DNA from: the human T2T-CHM13v2.0 reference genome, Homo sapiens
Length of the DNA stretch: 64,000 nucleotides
Assembly: GCF_009914755.1 (NCBI RefSeq)
Contig: NC_060929.1
Strand: one strand, 5' to 3'
Shown: positions 19,185 through 51,991 of the stretch, one piece after another
Position numbering within the stretch: the stretch's first letter is position 1
How the letters are laid out: each line of letters opens with the position of its first letter
Translations under genes and position numbers: made by a program
Notes under the pieces: generated by a model
Told to the model about the DNA's origin: nothing
Databases searched by the model: none
The model's input: the letters and a program-made list of their open reading frames with translations, nothing else

Positions 19185-22100
19185 GGGAGGGTTCCAACAT
19201 AGCCGAATAGGAACAGCTCCAGTCTACAGCTACTAGCATGAGAGAAGCAGAAGACGGGTGACTTCTGCATTTCCAGCTGAGGTACCGGGTTCATCTCACT
19301 GGGGCTTGTCGGACAGTGGATGCAGGACAGTGGGTGCAGTGCACTGAGTGTGAGCTGAAGCAGGGCGACGCAACACCTCGCCTGGGAAGCGGGAGGGGTC
19401 AGGGAATTCCCTTCCCTAGCCAAGCAAAGCTGTGACAGATGGCACCTGGAAAATCAGGTCACTCCCACCCTAATACTGCACTGTTCCAACACCCTTAGCA
19501 AACGGCACACCAGGAGATCATATCCCGCGCTTGGCTCAGAGGGTCCTACACCCACGGAGACTCACTCATTGCTAGCACAGCAGTCTGAGATCAAACTGCA
19601 AGGCGGCAGCGAGGCTGGGGGAGGGGCGCCTGCCATTGCTGAGGCTTGAGCAGGTAAACAAAGCATCTGGGAAGCACGAACTGGGTGGAGCCCACCACAG
19701 CTCAATGAGGCCTGCCTGCCTCTGTAGACTCCACCTCTGGGGGCAGGACATAGCCAAACAAAAGGCAGCAGAAACCTCTGCAGACTTAAATGTCCCTGTC
19801 TGACAGCTTTGAAGACAGCAGTGGTTCTCCCAGCACGCAGTTTGAGATCTGAGAACGGACAGACTGCCTCCTCAAGTGGGTCCCTGACCCCCGAGTAGCC
19901 TAACTGGGAGGCACCCCCAAGTAGGGGCAGACTGACACCTCACACAGCCAGGTACCCCTCTAAGACGAAACTTCCAGAGGAACGATCAAACAGCAACATT
20001 TGCTGTTCAGCAATATTTGCTGTTCTGCAGCCTCCACTGCTGATAACCAGGCAAACGGTCTGGAGTGGACCTCCAGCAAACTCCAACAGACTTGCAGCTG
20101 AGGGTCCTGACTGTTAGAAGGAAAACTAAAAAACAGAAAGGACATCCACACCCAAACCCCATCTGTACGACACCATCATCAAAGACCAAAGGTAGATAAA
20201 ACCACAAAGATGGGGGAAAAACAGCAGAAAAACTGAAATTCTAAAAATCAGAGCACCTCTCCTCCTCCAAAGGAATGCAGCTCCTCACCAGCAATGGAAC
20301 AAAGCTGGATGGAGGATGACTATGATGAGTTGAGAGAAGAAGGCTTCAGATGATCAAACTTCTCCAAGCTAAAGGAGGAAGTGCAAACCCATCACAAAGA
20401 AGTTAAAAACCTTGAACGAAGATTCAGACGAATGGCTAACTAGAATAACCAATGTAGAGAAGGCCTTAAATGACCTGATGGAGCTGAAAACCATGGCATG
20501 AGAACTACGTGACATATGCAAAAGCTTCAGTAGCCGATTTGATCAACTGGAAGAAAGGGTATCACTGATGGAAGATCAAATGAATGAAATGAAGCGAGAA
20601 GAGAAGTTTAGAGAAAAAAGAATAAAAAGAAACAAACAAAGCCTCCAAGAAATATGGGACTATGTGAAAAAACCAAATCTACATGTGATTGGTGTACCTG
20701 AAAGTGACGGGGAGAATGGAACCAAGTTGGAAAACACTCTGCAGGATATTATCCAGGAGAACTTCCCCAATCTAGCAAGGCAGGCCAACATTCAAATTCA
20801 GGAAATACAGAGAATGCCACAAAGATACTCCTCGAGAAGAGCAACTCCAAGACACATAATTGTCAGATTCACCAAAGCTGAAATGAAGGAAAAAATGTTA
20901 AGGGCAGCCAGAGAGAAAGGTCAGGTTACTCACAAAGGGAAGCCCATCAGACTAACAGCTGGTCTCTCGGCAGAAACTCTACAAGCCAGAAGAGAGTGGG
21001 GGCCAATATTCAACATTCTTAAAGAAAAGAATTTTCAACCCAGAATTTCATATCCAGCCAAACTAAGCTTCATAAGTGAAGGAGAAATAAAATCCTTTAC
21101 AGACAAGCAAATGCTGAGAGATTTTGTCACCACCAGGCCTGCCCTACAAGAGCTCCTGAAGGAAGCACTAAACATGGAAAGGAACAACCGGTACCAGCCA
21201 CTGCAAAACCATGCCAAATTGTAAAGACCATCAAGGCTAGGAAGAAACTGCGTCAACTAACGAGCAAAATAACCAGCTAACATCATAACGACAGGATCAA
21301 ATTCACACATAACAATATTAACCTTAAATGTAAATGGGCTAAATGCTCCAATTAAAAGACACAGACTGGCAAATTGGATAAAGAGTCAAGACCCATCAGT
21401 GTGCTATATTCAGGAAACCCATCTCACGTGCAGAGACACACATAGGCTCAGAATAAAGGGATGGAGGAAGATCTACCAAGCAAATGGAAAACAAAAAAAG
21501 GCAGGGGTTGCAATCCTAGTCTCTGATAAAACAGACTTTAAACCAACAAAGATCAAAATAGACAAAGAAGGCCATTACATAATGGTAAAGGGATCAATTC
21601 AACAAGAACAGCTAACTAACCTAAATATATATGCACCCAATACAGGAGCCCCCAGATTCATAAAGCAAGTCCTTAGAGACCTACAAAGAGACTTAGACTC
21701 CCACACAATAATAATGGGAGACTGTAACACCCCACTGTCAACATTAGACAGATCCACGAGACAGAAAGTTAACAAGGATATCCAGGAATTGAACTCAGCT
21801 CTGCACCAAGCAGACCTAATAGACATCTACAGAACTCTCCACCCCAAATCAACAGAATATACGTTCTTCTCAGCACCACATTACACTTATTCCAAAATTG
21901 ACCACATAGTTGGAAGTAAAGCACTCCTCAGCAAATGTAAAAGAACAGAAATTATAACAAACTGTCTCTTAGACCACAGTGCAATCAAACTAGAACTCAG
22001 GATTAAGAAACTCACTCAAAACCACTCAACTACATGGAAACTGAACAACCTGCTCCTGAATGACTACTGGCTACATAACAAAATGAAGGCAGAAATAAAG

Positions 22101-25100
22101 ATCTTCTTTGAAACCAACGAGAACAAAGACACAACATACCAGAATCTCTGGGACACATTTAAAGCAGTGTGTTAGAGGGAAATTTATAGCACTAAATGCC
22201 CACAAGAGAAAGCAGGAAAGATCTAAAATTAACACCCTAACATCACAATTAAAAGAACTACAGAAGCAAGAGGAAACACATTCAAAAGCTAGCAGAAGCA
22301 AGAAATAACTAAGATCAGAGCAGAACTGAAGGAAACAGAGACACAAAAAGCCCTTCAAAAAATCAATGAATCCAGGAGCTGGTTTTTTGAAAAGATCAAC
22401 AAAATTGATAGACTGCTAGCAAGACTAACAAGAAAAGAGATAAGAATCAAATAGAGGCAATAAAAAATGATAAAGGGGAGATCACCACCGATCCCACAGA
22501 AATACAAACTACCATCAGAGAATACTATAAACACTGCTACACAAACAAACTAGAAAATCTAGAAATGGATAAAGTCCTTGATACATACAACCTCACAAGA
22601 CTAAACCAGGAGGAAGTTGAATATCTGAACAGACCAACAGGCTCTGAAATTGAGGCAATAATTAATAGCTTACCAACCAAAAAAAGTCCAGGACCAGACG
22701 GATTCACAGCTGAATTCTACCAGAGGTACAAGGAGGAGCTGGTACCATTCCTTCTGAAACTATTCCAATCAATAGAAAAAGAGAGAATCCTCCCTAATTC
22801 ATTTTATGAGGCCAGCATCATCCTGATACCAAAGCCTGGCAGAGACACAACAAAAAAAGAGAATTTTAGACCCATATCCCTGATGAACATCGATGCAGAA
22901 ATCCTCAATAAAATACTGGCAAACCGAATCCAGCAGCACATCAAAAAGCTTATCCAACACGATCAAGTGGGCTTCATCCCTGGGATGCAAGGCTGGTTCA
23001 ACATACGCAAATCAATAAATGTAATCCAGCATATAAACAGAACCAAAGACAAAAACCACATGATTATCTCAATAGATGCAGAAAAGGCCTTTGGCAAAAT
23101 TCAACAGCCCTTCATGCTAAAAACTCTCAATAAATTAGTTATTGATGGGACGTATCTCAAAATAATAAGAGCTATGTATGACAAACCCACAGCCAATATC
23201 ATACTGAATGGGCAAAAACTGGAAGCATTCCCTTTGAAAACTGGCACAAGACAGGGATGCCCTCTCTCACCACTCCTCTTCAACATAGTGTTGGAAGTTC
23301 TGGCCAGGGCAATCAGGCAGGAGAAGGAAATAAAGGGTATTCAATTAGGAAAAGAGGAAGTCAAATTGTCCCTGTTTGCAAATGACATGATTGTATAGCT
23401 AGAAAACCCCATCGTCTCAGCCCAAAATCTCCTTAAGCTGATAAGTAACTCCAGCAAAGTCTCAGGATTCAAAATCAATGTACAAAAATCACAAGCATTC
23501 TTATACACCAATAACAGACAAACAGAGAGCCAAATCATGAGTGAACTCCCATTCACAGTTGCTTCAAAGGGAATAAAATACCTAGGAATCCAACTTCCAA
23601 GGGATGTGAAGGATCTCCTCAAGGAGAACTACAAACCACTGCTCAATGAAATAAAAGAGGATACGAACAAATGGAAGAACATTCCATGCTCATGGGTAGA
23701 AAGAATCAATATCATGAAAATGGCCATACTGCCCAAGGTAATTTATAGATTCAATGCCATCCCCATCAAGCTACCAATGACTTTCTTCACTGAATTGGAA
23801 AAAACTACTTTAAAGTTCATATGGAACCAAAAAAGAGCCCGCATTGCCAAGTCAATCCTAAGCCAAAAGAACAAAGCTGGAGGCATCACGCTTCCTGACT
23901 TCAAACTATACTACAAGGCTACAGTAACCAAAACAGCATGGTACTGGTACCAAAACAGAGATATAGACCAATGGAACAGAACAGAGCCCTCAGAAATAAT
24001 GCCACATATCTACAACTATCTGATCTTTGACAAACCTGACAAAAACAAGAAATGGGGAAAGGATTCCCTATATAATAAATGGTGCTGGGAAAACTGGCTA
24101 GGCATATGTAGAAAGCTGAAACTGGATCCCTTCCTTACACCTTTTACAAAAATTAATTCAAGATGCATTAAAGACTTAAATGTTAGACCTAAAACCATAA
24201 AAACCCTAGAAGAAAACCTAGGCAATACCATTCAGGACATAGGCATGGGCAAGGACTTCCTGTCTAAAACACCAAAAGCAATGGCAACAAAAGCCAAAAT
24301 TGACAAATGGGATCTAATTGAACTAAAGAGCTCCTTCTGCACAGCAAAAAAACTACCATCAGAGTGAACAGGCAACCTACAGAATGGGAGAAAATTTTTG
24401 CAATCTACTCACCTGACTAAAGGGCTGATACCCAGAATCTACAAAGAACTCAAACAAATTTACAAGAAAAAAATCAAACAACCCCATCAAAAAGTAGGCG
24501 AAGGATATGAACAGACACTTCTCAAAAGAAGACATTTATGCAGCCAACAGACACATGAAAAAATGCTCATCATCACTGGCCATCAGAGAAATGCAAATCA
24601 AAACCACGATGAGATACCATCTTACACCAGTTAGAATGGTGATCATTAAAAAGTCAGGAAACGACAGGTGCTGGAGAGGATGTGGAGAAATAGGAACACT
24701 TACACTGTTGGTGGGACTGTAAACTAGTTCAACCATTGTGGAAGAGAGAGTGGCGATTCCTCAGGGATCTAGAACTAGAAATACCATTTGACCCAGCCAT
24801 CCCATTACTGAGTATATACCCAGAGGATTATAAGTCATGTTGCTATAAAGACATGCACACGTATGTTTATTGTGGCACTATTCACAATAGCAAAGACTTG
24901 GAACCAACCCAAATGTCCAACAATGATAGACTGGATTAAGAAAATGTGGCACATATACACCATGGAATACTATGCAGCCATAAAAAATGATGAGTTCATG
25001 TCCTTTGTAGGGACATGGATGAAGCTGGAAACCATCATTCTCAACAAACTCTCGGAAGGACAAAAAACCAAACACTGCATGTTCTCACTCATAGGTGGTA

Positions 25101-51800: not shown

Positions 51801-51991
51801 AATGCCTTGCCCTGCTTCGGCTCACACTCAGTGCGCTGCACCCACTGTCCTGCACCCACTGTCCTACAATCCCCAATGAGATGAACCTGGTACCTCAGTT
51901 GGAAATGCAGAAATCATTCGTATTCTGCATCGCTCATGCTGGGAGCTGCAGACTGGAGTTGTTCCTATTCGGCCATCTTGGCTCCACCCCC
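45835..51991 (-). mobile_element. Full-length inactive L1PA (about L1PA4-5), L1-B
   Basis: 5' end gttcctattcggccatcttgg at ~51961-51991; ORF1 remnant 49948-50607; ORF2 fragments 46971-49773; TSD t(g/a)ttaatgcagttttt at 45819-45834 and 51992-52007. Confidence 0.97.
51539..51721 (+). other. L1 ORF0 (antisense 5'UTR ORF) of L1-B, 60 codons, premature stop
   Basis: MAGAPTPASLQPCSLISDCCASNERGSMGVGPSEPGAGYNLLVCRWLRPLEKRSIRVGVT*; donor ccag|gtgcag after 51644. Confidence 0.8.

What the first reader, a model, noticed from the sequence alone, without database searches (positions are those of the whole stretch)
19185..51991. Two independently inserted, inverted full-length L1s share private disabling mutations in patches
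Seen: L1-A (+) and L1-B (-) each have their own matching TSD pair and clearly different 5'UTRs, so they are separate insertions. Yet both carry the same lesions relative to the recalled L1PA consensus: ORF2 start ATG>ACG (21288 / 49882-84), the +1 frameshift gtgtgTtagaggg (22172 / 48999), the gcagaagcaag and aaagacatgcacac deletions, and the changes GDCNTP, KIDKEG, WLHN, VIDGTY, RAMYDK, FANDMIV, SLYNKW and WKREWRF. Several junk ORFs are identical between them (21035-21256 = 49916-50137; 22071-22358 = 48814-49101; 23101-23286 = 47881-48066). Other stretches differ (5'UTR; 22500-22700 vs 48470-48660). Inference: an element with a broken ORF2 is an unlikely common parent, so this looks like repeated gene conversion or recombination between the two arms of a 33-kb inverted repeat.
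Basis: partly seen in the sequence, partly recalled or inferred. Interest (0 to 1): 0.85.

Follow-up and report, generated by a model that had tools for sequence, protein, structure and literature searches.

The report
Inverted L1 pair homogenised by gene conversion
Two old LINE-1 retrotransposons that landed separately, head to head about 20 kb apart on human chromosome 5q35, have repeatedly copied stretches of sequence onto each other, which is a clean example of a known process rather than a new one.

Summary
L1-A (19185-25320, +) and L1-B (45836-51991, -) each have their own 16-nt target-site duplication, and the flanks share no homology, so they are separate insertions. Overall identity is 95.6% but strongly mosaic. 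Tracts totalling about 3.4 kb differ by 0.6-2%. The 5'UTR and four inner patches differ by 4-16%. The longest identical runs are 470, 429 and 344 bp, against a permutation maximum of 288 (0 of 5000).

In the homogenised tracts both arms carry derived alleles and indels that at most 1 of 34 unlinked L1 copies has. Genome-wide word searches found the combined haplotype only at this locus and its three 5q35 paralogues.

Those paralogues (A2, B2, B3) show at least two epochs. Most tracts predate the segmental duplication. Others are block-specific:
- 22509-22635 was overwritten in B2 only.
- The ORF2 ATG>ACG change is shared by A and B only.
- 24811-24840 passed from A to B here.

Transfer is non-reciprocal. 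This is interlocus gene conversion between inverted repeats, a known mechanism. Neither an inversion of the spacer nor a functional effect was shown.

The parts
19185..25320 (+). L1-A, a full-length, multiply broken LINE-1. Its TSD copies lie at 19169-19184 and 25321-25336.
   Evidence: TSDs. Pfam finds the ORF1 domains (Tnp_22_trimer, Transposase_22, Tnp_22_dsRBD), Exo_endo_phos and RVT_1. It is 91.6-94.9% identical to unlinked L1 copies.
45836..51991 (-). L1-B, a full-length, multiply broken LINE-1. Its TSD copies lie at 51992-52007 and 45819-45834.
   Evidence: TSDs. Pfam finds the same domains as in L1-A.
19185..20962 (+). Region I (B: 51981-50210): the 5'UTR and 5' part of ORF1, not homogenised.
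   Evidence: 142 A-B differences in 1778 bp. Quartet sites by lineage / locus / cross are 125 / 0 / 0. Non-CpG divergence is 5.9%.
20963..22508 (+). Region II (B: 50209-48664): a homogenised tract covering the end of ORF1 and the ORF2 endonuclease. It holds the ATG>ACG change (21289), the extra T (22172), the 1-bp deletion (22297) and the 4-bp deletion (22429).
   Evidence: 9 A-B differences in 1546 bp, against 17 for A-A2 and 16 for B-B2. No site has the pure lineage-specific patterns 11000 or 00111; 1 quartet site groups A with A2 against B with B2. Identical runs of 429 and 470 bp.
22509..22640 (+). Region III (B: 48663-48526): a divergent patch in this window that has been erased in the distal inverted block.
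   Evidence: A-B 21 differing columns, A2-B2 0, B-B3 1. The alignment shows B2 identical to A2, including two 3-bp deletions. The A-type patch is found genome-wide only in A, A2 and B2; the next best match is 91%.
22641..23440 (+). Region IV (B: 48525-47730): a homogenised tract in the reverse transcriptase.
   Evidence: A-B 17 differences, A2-B2 3. Quartet sites 0 / 3 / 0.
23441..23620 (+). Region V (B: 47729-47550): a small unhomogenised patch.
   Evidence: 7 lineage-specific sites, 0 locus-specific.
23621..24120 (+). Region VI (B: 47549-47050): a homogenised tract.
   Evidence: 9 A-B differences in 500 bp. Quartet sites 2 / 1 / 0.
24121..24515 (+). Region VII (B: 47049-46664): an unhomogenised, indel-rich patch.
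   Evidence: 33 A-B differences in 395 bp and 28 lineage-specific quartet sites. Seven lineage-specific indels.
24516..25040 (+). Region VIII (B: 46663-46137): a homogenised tract. It includes the A-to-B transfer specific to this block at 24811-24840 and the shared 2-bp deletion at 24850.
   Evidence: 6 A-B differences in 525 bp and an identical run of 344 bp. Pattern 11100 at 24811, 24834 and 24840, each in 0 of 13 unlinked copies.
25041..25300 (+). Region IX (B: 46136-45869): the 3' end, not homogenised.
   Evidence: 24 A-B differences in 260 bp and 16 lineage-specific quartet sites.
25337..45818 (.). The 20.5-kb spacer between the arms. It holds FAM153B exon 1 (30717-31426) and the RefSeq NAHR region (40236-43225).
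   Evidence: Annotation supplied with the finding. The order and orientation of spacer pieces relative to the arms are the same in all three 5q35 blocks.

Best explanation
Two LINE-1 elements of similar age inserted independently, in opposite orientation, 20.5 kb apart. The age is inferred from divergence as roughly L1PA4-6; the subfamily was not assigned by a tool. Both decayed as pseudogenes.

Double-strand breaks or gaps in one arm were then repeatedly repaired by homologous recombination, using the inverted partner on the same chromosome or on the sister chromatid as template, without crossover. Each repair copied a tract a few hundred bases to 1-2 kb long from one arm onto the other. Post-insertion lesions of the donor arm, including frameshifts and the reverse-transcriptase active-site change, therefore now sit in both arms.

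The 5'UTR and four indel-rich patches stayed outside the tracts. The likely reason, which is inferred, is that their divergence and indels block heteroduplex formation, while stretches that are already identical are easier to convert again.

The process ran before the 5q35 low-copy-repeat duplication, because the shared haplotype is in all five copies. It continued separately afterwards in the proximal block (this window) and in the distal inverted block.

Shown: independent insertion, mosaic identity, private shared-derived alleles, non-reciprocal block-specific tracts. Inferred: the repair pathway, the barrier effect, and the dates.
For: 1. Independent TSDs and no flank homology.

2. Mosaic identity. 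There are 266 difference events in 6154 sites. The longest identical runs are 470, 429 and 344 bp, against a permutation mean of 139 and maximum of 288; 0 of 5000 permutations reach the observed run. The variance-to-mean ratio over 100-site bins is 4.3. The contrast holds for non-CpG sites: 0.46-1.4% in tracts II, IV, VI and VIII, against 3.4-10% in I, III, V, VII and IX.

3. Against 34 unlinked L1 copies, 39 columns are derived in all five local copies and present in at most 1 of 34. Of these, 35 lie 3' of 20962.

4. Lineage-specific sites number 95 (pattern 11000) and 70 (pattern 00111). Region II, 1546 bp, has none with these two patterns. Its one lineage-type quartet site has another pattern.

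5. Genome-wide tests. The best unlinked match to 21000-23000 is 95%, against 97-99% for the local copies. For 21440-21740 the local copies are 99-100% and the others at most 98%. The triple-change 25-mer has 3 hits, all local.

6. Trees. In homogenised columns the five copies form a clade with support 1.0 and stem 0.0155. Inside it they group by block: (A,B) and (A2,B2). In unhomogenised columns (A,A2) and (B,(B2,B3)) are each supported at 1.0, with stems of 0.038 and 0.028.

7. Block-specific, non-reciprocal tracts:
- B2 equals A2 over 22509-22635, while B and B3 keep the B haplotype and A2 keeps A's.
- Pattern 11100 at 22273, 22798 and 24811-24840.
- Pattern 10100 at 21289.
- Derived alleles are shared within a block at 8 sites (10100 twice, 01010 six times) and across blocks at 1 site (10010 once, 01100 never); binomial p = 0.02.
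- The reciprocal-swap patterns 01100 and 10011 are absent.

8. In region II, A differs from B at 9 sites but from its true paralogue A2 at 17.
Against: - Support for the (A,B) pair inside the homogenised clade is weak: 0.42, and 0.78 for (A2,B2). Quartet counts in region II are small: 5 by block, 2 cross, 1 by lineage.
- Two headline lesions recur elsewhere. The extra T is in 3 of 34 unlinked copies and the 4-bp deletion in 1 of 34. The ATG>ACG change is in 2 of 34, so a parallel change cannot be excluded for that single site.
- Even in the 'unhomogenised' columns the A and B lineages are sisters (support 0.87, stem 0.0085). A few shared alleles may therefore come from a common source lineage or from small tracts that I did not delimit.
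- Region borders were drawn after looking at the data.
- The unlinked sample is 34 copies out of more than 11000 first-look candidates, chosen by a loose ranking. At the two ends only 10-13 of them cover a column.
- Only one haplotype of one genome was examined, with no reads and no ape orthologues.
Confidence: 0.9

Rival explanations
1. Both elements are copies of the same defective source element or of a rare sub-subfamily. On this view the shared lesions were inherited at insertion and no exchange between the arms is needed.
For: The A and B lineages are sisters with a short common stem even in the unhomogenised columns. Four strictly shared-derived sites lie in region I. Single shared alleles do occur in tens of unlinked copies.
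Against: Inheritance cannot remove post-insertion differences. Region II has no site with the lineage-specific patterns 11000 or 00111 in 1546 bp, while region I has 125 lineage quartet sites in 1778 bp. No unlinked copy shares more than 1 of the 39 strict sites; the one copy selected for sharing 2 has 3. The triple-change word is confined to this family. Block-specific tracts cannot be inherited from a source. An ORF2 broken by frameshifts would be a poor parent; this last point is from established knowledge of L1 cis-preference, recalled.
Confidence: 0.03
2. One single long conversion event with patchy mismatch repair, before the segmental duplication, produced the whole mosaic. 'Repeated' conversion would then be an over-reading.
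For: The pre-duplication tracts II, IV, VI and VIII are collinear and separated only by short patches. Discontinuous tracts from one heteroduplex are known (recalled). All four tracts are shared by all five copies.
Against: At least three later events are needed. One is the overwrite of 22509-22635, probably extending to about 23094, in B2 by A2. Another is the transfer at 24811-24840 into B in this block. The third is the spread of 21289 between A and B. In region II, A-B divergence (9) is below A-A2 (17).
Confidence: 0.05
3. The exchange happened through crossovers between the arms, that is inversion and re-inversion of the spacer with different breakpoints, rather than through non-crossover conversion.
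For: The geometry matches validated inversions mediated by inverted L1 pairs. Passages of PMC3961182 list HsInv0341, with L1PA3 repeats of 6.2 kb and a 20.8-kb inverted segment.
Against: Double crossovers swap segments reciprocally and do not raise identity between the arms. The reciprocal patterns 01100 and 10011 are absent. In tract III the donor A2 keeps its own haplotype. Both elements keep matched TSDs. The spacer has the same orientation in all three blocks.
Confidence: 0.02
4. Assembly artefact: reads from one arm were used to polish or build the other arm.
For: The arms contain identical runs of up to 470 bp. No reads could be examined.
Against: The arms still differ at 266 events spread over 6.1 kb, enough for long reads to tell them apart. 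The same shared haplotype is seen in three further copies 1.7-2.0 Mb away, each with its own private changes. The tract borders are biologically coherent, with lineage alleles switching together.
Confidence: 0.01

Closest known systems
Gene conversion between dispersed retrotransposon copies (L1-L1 and neighbouring Alu-Alu). This literature is recalled, not read here. My searches did not return those papers.
   Same: Non-allelic, non-reciprocal transfer between independently inserted copies of one repeat family. It produces mosaic elements and shared non-consensus alleles, and it is favoured by proximity.
   Different: Here the partners are two full-length elements in inverted orientation. About 3.4 kb of 6.1 kb is homogenised. 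The event history is resolved into epochs because three duplicated copies act as natural replicates.
Arm-to-arm gene conversion in large palindromes of the sex chromosomes (recalled; the topic of PMC11168930, of which I saw only the search listing and the start of the abstract).
   Same: Inverted arms on one chromosome keep each other similar by intrachromosomal non-crossover recombination. A GC-biased outcome is expected and is hinted at here: W>S to S>W is 17:8 among shared-derived sites, against 58:87 among the other classes (Fisher p = 0.015).
   Different: Palindrome arms arise by duplication and are above 99.9% identical along their whole length (recalled). Here the arms are separate insertions, are 95.6% identical overall, and a third of their length has escaped homogenisation.
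Interlocus gene conversion in human segmental duplications (PMC4467073; search listing and start of the abstract only).
   Same: Short unidirectional transfers between paralogous sequences. The five L1 copies also show exchange between blocks, for example the four-gamete mosaic at 22273-22300.
   Different: The main donor-recipient pair here is not a pair of duplication paralogues. It is two unrelated insertions that merely belong to the same repeat family.
Polymorphic inversions mediated by inverted L1 pairs, for example HsInv0341 (L1PA3 repeats of 6.2 kb, 20.8-kb segment). Passages of PMC3961182 were read.
   Same: Nearly the same geometry: 6.1-kb inverted L1 arms and a 20.5-kb spacer.
   Different: No inversion was seen here. 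The spacer orientation is the same in the three paralogous blocks of this genome. Population data were not available.

Membership tests
Full-length LINE-1 (L1PA) insertion | Target-site duplication flanking the element, with an A-rich 3' tail | tested here: met
   16-nt TSDs with 15 of 16 matching for both elements, and A-rich tails before the 3' TSD copies.
Full-length LINE-1 (L1PA) insertion | ORF1 (trimerisation, RRM-like and C-terminal domains) and ORF2 (endonuclease and reverse transcriptase) | tested here: met
   Pfam Tnp_22_trimer, Transposase_22, Tnp_22_dsRBD, Exo_endo_phos and RVT_1 in both elements, all above the curated cut-offs. The frames are broken.
Full-length LINE-1 (L1PA) insertion | Assignment to a named subfamily (L1PA3-6) by diagnostic positions | not testable with these tools
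   No RepeatMasker or Dfam library is held. The only evidence is 91.6-94.9% identity to unlinked copies, and retention of a roughly 125-bp 5'UTR segment that 5 of the loci examined lack. The age label L1PA4-6 is inferred.
Interlocus gene conversion between inverted repeats | The two copies have independent origins, so similarity is not due to recent duplication | tested here: met
   Different TSDs and no flank homology.
Interlocus gene conversion between inverted repeats | Identical fragments significantly longer than expected from the overall divergence (a GENECONV-type test) | tested here: met
   Runs of 470, 429 and 344 bp against a permutation maximum of 288; 0 of 5000 permutations reach the observed run. 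The result also holds for non-CpG sites.
Interlocus gene conversion between inverted repeats | Shared derived alleles inside the tracts that are absent from other family members | tested here: met
   39 strict columns; no unlinked copy of 34 shares more than 1. Genome word tests.
Interlocus gene conversion between inverted repeats | Non-reciprocal transfer: the donor is unchanged, and the recipient loses its own alleles and gains the donor's | tested here: met
   In tract 22509-22635, B2 gained the A-lineage alleles (pattern 11010) and lost the B-lineage alleles (pattern 00101), while A2 stays A-like. Reciprocal patterns are absent.
Interlocus gene conversion between inverted repeats | Direct observation of events in pedigrees, sperm or populations | not testable with these tools
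   Only one haploid assembly is held.
Duplication-born palindrome with arm-to-arm conversion | Arms created by an inverted duplication and near-identical along their whole length | tested here: not met
   The arms are separate insertions. Overall identity is 95.6%, with 8% divergence in region I. The pair works like such a palindrome but is not a member of the class.
Inverted-repeat-mediated inversion polymorphism | The spacer is found in both orientations, with hybrid arms | tested here: inconclusive
   The orientation is the same in the three paralogous blocks and the TSDs are matched. No population sample was available.

The most novel reading that the evidence does not exclude
The inverted L1 pair may be a still-active recombination module inside the proximal Sotos low-copy repeat. 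Arm-to-arm exchange has continued since the blocks duplicated and may be GC-biased. The same pairing may also yield occasional crossovers that flip the 20.5-kb spacer, which carries FAM153B exon 1 and the 3-kb NAHR hotspot region. Such a flip would change the hotspot's orientation relative to the distal copies, and with it a chromosome's liability to the 1.9-Mb deletion. Nothing here shows an inversion. The evidence only shows that the arms keep interacting.
Probability: 0.08. Interest if true: 0.7.

Novelty: new member of a known kind. Interest (0 to 1): 0.4.

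Why it matters
It is a well-resolved natural experiment. Two unrelated insertions became a functional inverted repeat, and three duplicated copies date the exchanges as before or after the duplication.

- It shows that disabling mutations shared between neighbouring L1s need not mean common descent. 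That matters for L1 subfamily and source-element inference, and for dating insertions by divergence.
- It illustrates how divergence and indels limit conversion tracts.
- It places a pair of interacting 6-kb inverted repeats around the promoter of FAM153B and the annotated Sotos NAHR hotspot. That makes the site a candidate for inversion screening in pangenome data.

The mechanism itself is textbook.

Tried and rejected
- **Subfamily-diagnostic variants: rejected**.
- **The chr12 copy (L049).** It holds two of the shared single-base words. I fetched and aligned it. It is 91-93% identical to A and shares 3 of 39 strict sites, so I treat it as a coincidence.
- **Third-party donor for the divergent A-type patch 22500-22660.** None was found. 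The best unlinked match is 91%.
- **A partner 'A3' in the third block.** It is absent. Homology to the window starts at about 25576.
- **Spacer inversion between blocks.** None was seen.
- **CpG decay as the cause of the patchiness: rejected**, using non-CpG rates.
- **Donor direction of the old tracts.** The transition-to-transversion ratio of shared-derived sites is 15:21. It resembles the A lineage (27:29; p = 0.67) more than the B lineage (26:12; p = 0.035). This hints at A as the donor but is post hoc and weak.
- **PRDM9-type 13-mer (motif recalled).** There is none in the arms.
- **Visser et al. 2005 (PMC1196433).** The paper is not held, so what I say about the 1.9-Mb deletion and its hotspot rests on the supplied RefSeq annotation, on passages of PMC11393467, and on recall.
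- **Literature searches.** Searches returned no paper describing this L1 pair. 'FAM153B' plus 'inversion' gave 2 unrelated papers. That is not proof that the pair is unpublished.

Full report
**What is there**

The window is human chr5q35, in the proximal low-copy repeat next to FAM153B (annotation supplied with the finding). Two full-length LINE-1 elements lie in opposite orientation.

- L1-A occupies 19185-25320 on the + strand. It is flanked by AAATTTTA(C/T)TGGGACT at 19169-19184 and 25321-25336.
- L1-B occupies 45836-51991 on the - strand. It is flanked by AAAAACTGCATTAA(T/C)A at 52007-51992 and 45834-45819.
- The A-to-B alignment ends at the element borders, so these are two separate insertions.
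- Pfam finds the three L1 ORF1 domains, the endonuclease and the reverse transcriptase in both, in broken frames.
- The arms are 6.1 kb and the spacer is 20.5 kb.

The three stretches said to be identical are identical.

Overall identity is 95.65%, but it is far from uniform. I split the element into nine regions in L1-A coordinates, with these A-B differences:

| Region | Coordinates | A-B differences |
|---|---|---|
| I | 19185-20962 | 142 |
| II | 20963-22508 | 9 |
| III | 22509-22640 | 21 |
| IV | 22641-23440 | 17 |
| V | 23441-23620 | 7 |
| VI | 23621-24120 | 9 |
| VII | 24121-24515 | 33 |
| VIII | 24516-25040 | 6 |
| IX | 25041-25300 | 24 |

There are 266 difference events in 6154 sites. 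The longest identical runs are 470, 429 and 344 bp. Random placement of the differences gives a mean longest run of 139 and never more than 288 in 5000 trials. CpG decay does not explain the pattern. Non-CpG divergence is 0.46-1.4% in regions II, IV, VI and VIII, and 3.4-10% in the others.

**Comparison set**

A search of the whole genome with 21000-23000 found three further close copies on the same chromosome, and then unlinked L1s at 95% or less. Only 40 of 11015 first-look candidates were scored. Flank alignments identify the close copies:

- A2, at C5:178.33 Mb on the - strand, is 98.8% identical to A including both flanks.
- B2, at C5:178.30 Mb on the + strand, is 98.0% identical to B including flanks.
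- B3, at C5:178.58 Mb on the - strand, is 98.2% identical to B including flanks.

The pair therefore exists twice: in this block, and inverted as a whole in a distal block. A third block, in direct orientation, holds only B3. Its homology to the window begins at about 25576, some 240 bp beyond L1-A.

I aligned the five local copies with 34 unlinked copies: 14 near-full-length copies and 20 five-kb pieces. I dropped L026 and L034, which are one rearranged locus. I also dropped L027-L030, which duplicate L035-L038. As a result, columns near the two ends are covered by only 10-13 unlinked copies.

**Shared derived alleles are private and lie in the tracts**

Each column was polarised by the majority of the unlinked copies.

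- 39 columns are derived in all five local copies and seen in at most 1 of 34 unlinked copies. Of these, 35 lie 3' of 20962.
- No unlinked copy shares more than one of them.
- Three 25-mers that each carry one shared change occur 60, 73 and 23 times in the genome. Single changes therefore recur among the many thousands of L1s. These words co-occur only in the five local copies and in one chr12 element. That element turned out to be 91-93% identical to A and shares 3 of 39 sites.
- The 25-mer with three shared changes occurs three times in the genome, in A, B and A2.
- For 21440-21740 the five local copies score 99-100% and everything else 98% or less.

The extra T at 22172 is in 3 of 34 unlinked copies and the 4-bp deletion at 22429 is in 1 of 34.

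**Why this is conversion and not common descent**

Differences fixed in the A lineage (A and A2) number 95 columns, and those fixed in the B lineage (B, B2 and B3) number 70. They fill region I and the patches III, V, VII and IX. Region II has none of these two patterns in 1546 bp. Inheritance from a shared parent cannot erase later differences.

Trees say the same thing:

- On unhomogenised columns, (A,A2) and (B,(B2,B3)) are separate clades with long stems, 0.038 and 0.028.
- On homogenised columns, all five form one clade (support 1.0, stem 0.0155). Inside it, the copies group by block rather than by lineage, though weakly: 0.42 for (A,B) and 0.78 for (A2,B2).

**At least two epochs**

The shared haplotype is in all five copies, so most of the homogenisation predates the duplication of the blocks. 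Later events are block-specific.

- **Distal block.** B2 is identical to A2 across 22509-22635, including two 3-bp deletions. B and B3 keep the B-type sequence, and A2 keeps A's. That is a non-reciprocal overwrite. Derived alleles shared by A2 and B2 at 22452, 22591, 22863 and 23058 suggest that the tract is longer.
- **This window.** The ATG>ACG change at 21289 is in A and B only. The A-lineage alleles at 22273, 22798 and 24811-24840 (each in 0 of the unlinked copies) are now also in B, but not in B2 or B3.
- **Counts.** Derived alleles are shared within a block at 8 sites and across blocks at 1 (p = 0.02). In region II, A differs from B at 9 sites but from its true paralogue A2 at 17. Patterns expected from reciprocal swaps are absent.

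**Mechanism (inferred)**

The likely mechanism is homologous repair of breaks in one arm, templated by the inverted partner and resolved without crossover. The tracts that escaped are those with dense mismatches and lineage-specific indels. This fits a heterology barrier combined with positive feedback in stretches that are already identical.

Shared-derived substitutions are enriched for AT-to-GC changes: 17:8, against 58:87 in the other classes (p = 0.015). GC-biased conversion would predict this. The test is post hoc and small.

**Limits**

- Only one haplotype was examined, with no reads, no ape genomes and no repeat library for subfamily calls.
- Region borders were chosen after inspecting the data.
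- The A and B lineages are still weakly sister in the 'unhomogenised' set (support 0.87). A minor share of the common alleles could therefore be inherited.

**Comparison with the known**

Gene conversion among dispersed L1 and Alu copies, arm-to-arm conversion in palindromes, and interlocus conversion in segmental duplications are all established. The first two are recalled. For the third I saw only a search listing.

A polymorphic inversion mediated by two 6.2-kb L1PA3 repeats around 20.8 kb is on record (passages of PMC3961182), with almost the same geometry. No inversion is seen among the three blocks here.

My searches found no description of this particular pair.

**Verdict**

It is a tidy example of local interest, because the pair brackets the FAM153B promoter and the annotated Sotos recombination hotspot.

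Noticed in passing
window 22536-22635 (L1-A), and the same stretch in L032 (A2) and L031 (B2): The A lineage carries a dense private mutation cluster in about 100 bp: two 3-bp deletions plus roughly ten substitutions. Genome-wide it is found only in A, A2 and B2, and the next best match is 91%. No donor was found. It may be the scar of an error-prone repair event.
   Followed up: partly
window 24745-24749 and 46428-46432: Three substitutions fall within 5 bp and are shared by all five local copies. The 25-mer around them occurs only 3 times in the genome, all in this family. This looks like a single multi-nucleotide mutation.
   Followed up: partly
window about 25576; L050 (C5:178546500-178555500) position about 8182: The third, directly oriented 5q35 block loses homology to the window about 240 bp beyond the 3' end of L1-A. 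The duplication breakpoint therefore lies next to the element, and B3 has no inverted partner.
   Followed up: partly
window 24608-24645; L033 (B3): B3 carries A-lineage alleles at four sites within 40 bp (patterns 11001 and 00110), although its block has no A copy. This implies exchange between blocks, or sorting of an old polymorphic tract.
   Followed up: no
window 22273-22300: Four variable sites in 28 bp give a four-gamete type mosaic among A, A2, B, B2 and B3. For example, the 1-bp deletion at 22297 is in A, B and B2 but not in A2 or B3. Exchange between the blocks as well as between the arms is likely.
   Followed up: no
spacer; C5:178309060-178326337 compared with window 29273-40236: The distal inverted block has about 6.3 kb more sequence between two spacer landmarks than this window or the third block. 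This is an insertion or deletion that I did not examine.
   Followed up: no
window 40801-40813 and 42917-42929: Two matches to the recalled PRDM9-type 13-mer CCNCCNTNNCCNC lie inside the RefSeq NAHR region, and none lie in the L1 arms. The window has 8 matches, against 2.3 expected.
   Followed up: no
window 40236-43225: Besides the two 99% copies on chr5, the hotspot region has 93% copies on C16 at 33.0 and 34.4 Mb, and weaker tandem-like matches on C10 and C19.
   Followed up: no
window 19076-20077: The two RefSeq 'enhancer' features in the supplied annotation coincide with the 5'UTR (internal promoter) of L1-A. This is the part that escaped homogenisation.
   Followed up: no
window 23396-23398: L1-A has a private stop codon that splits the reverse-transcriptase frame. 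L1-B reads through the same place as one 461-aa open frame.
   Followed up: partly
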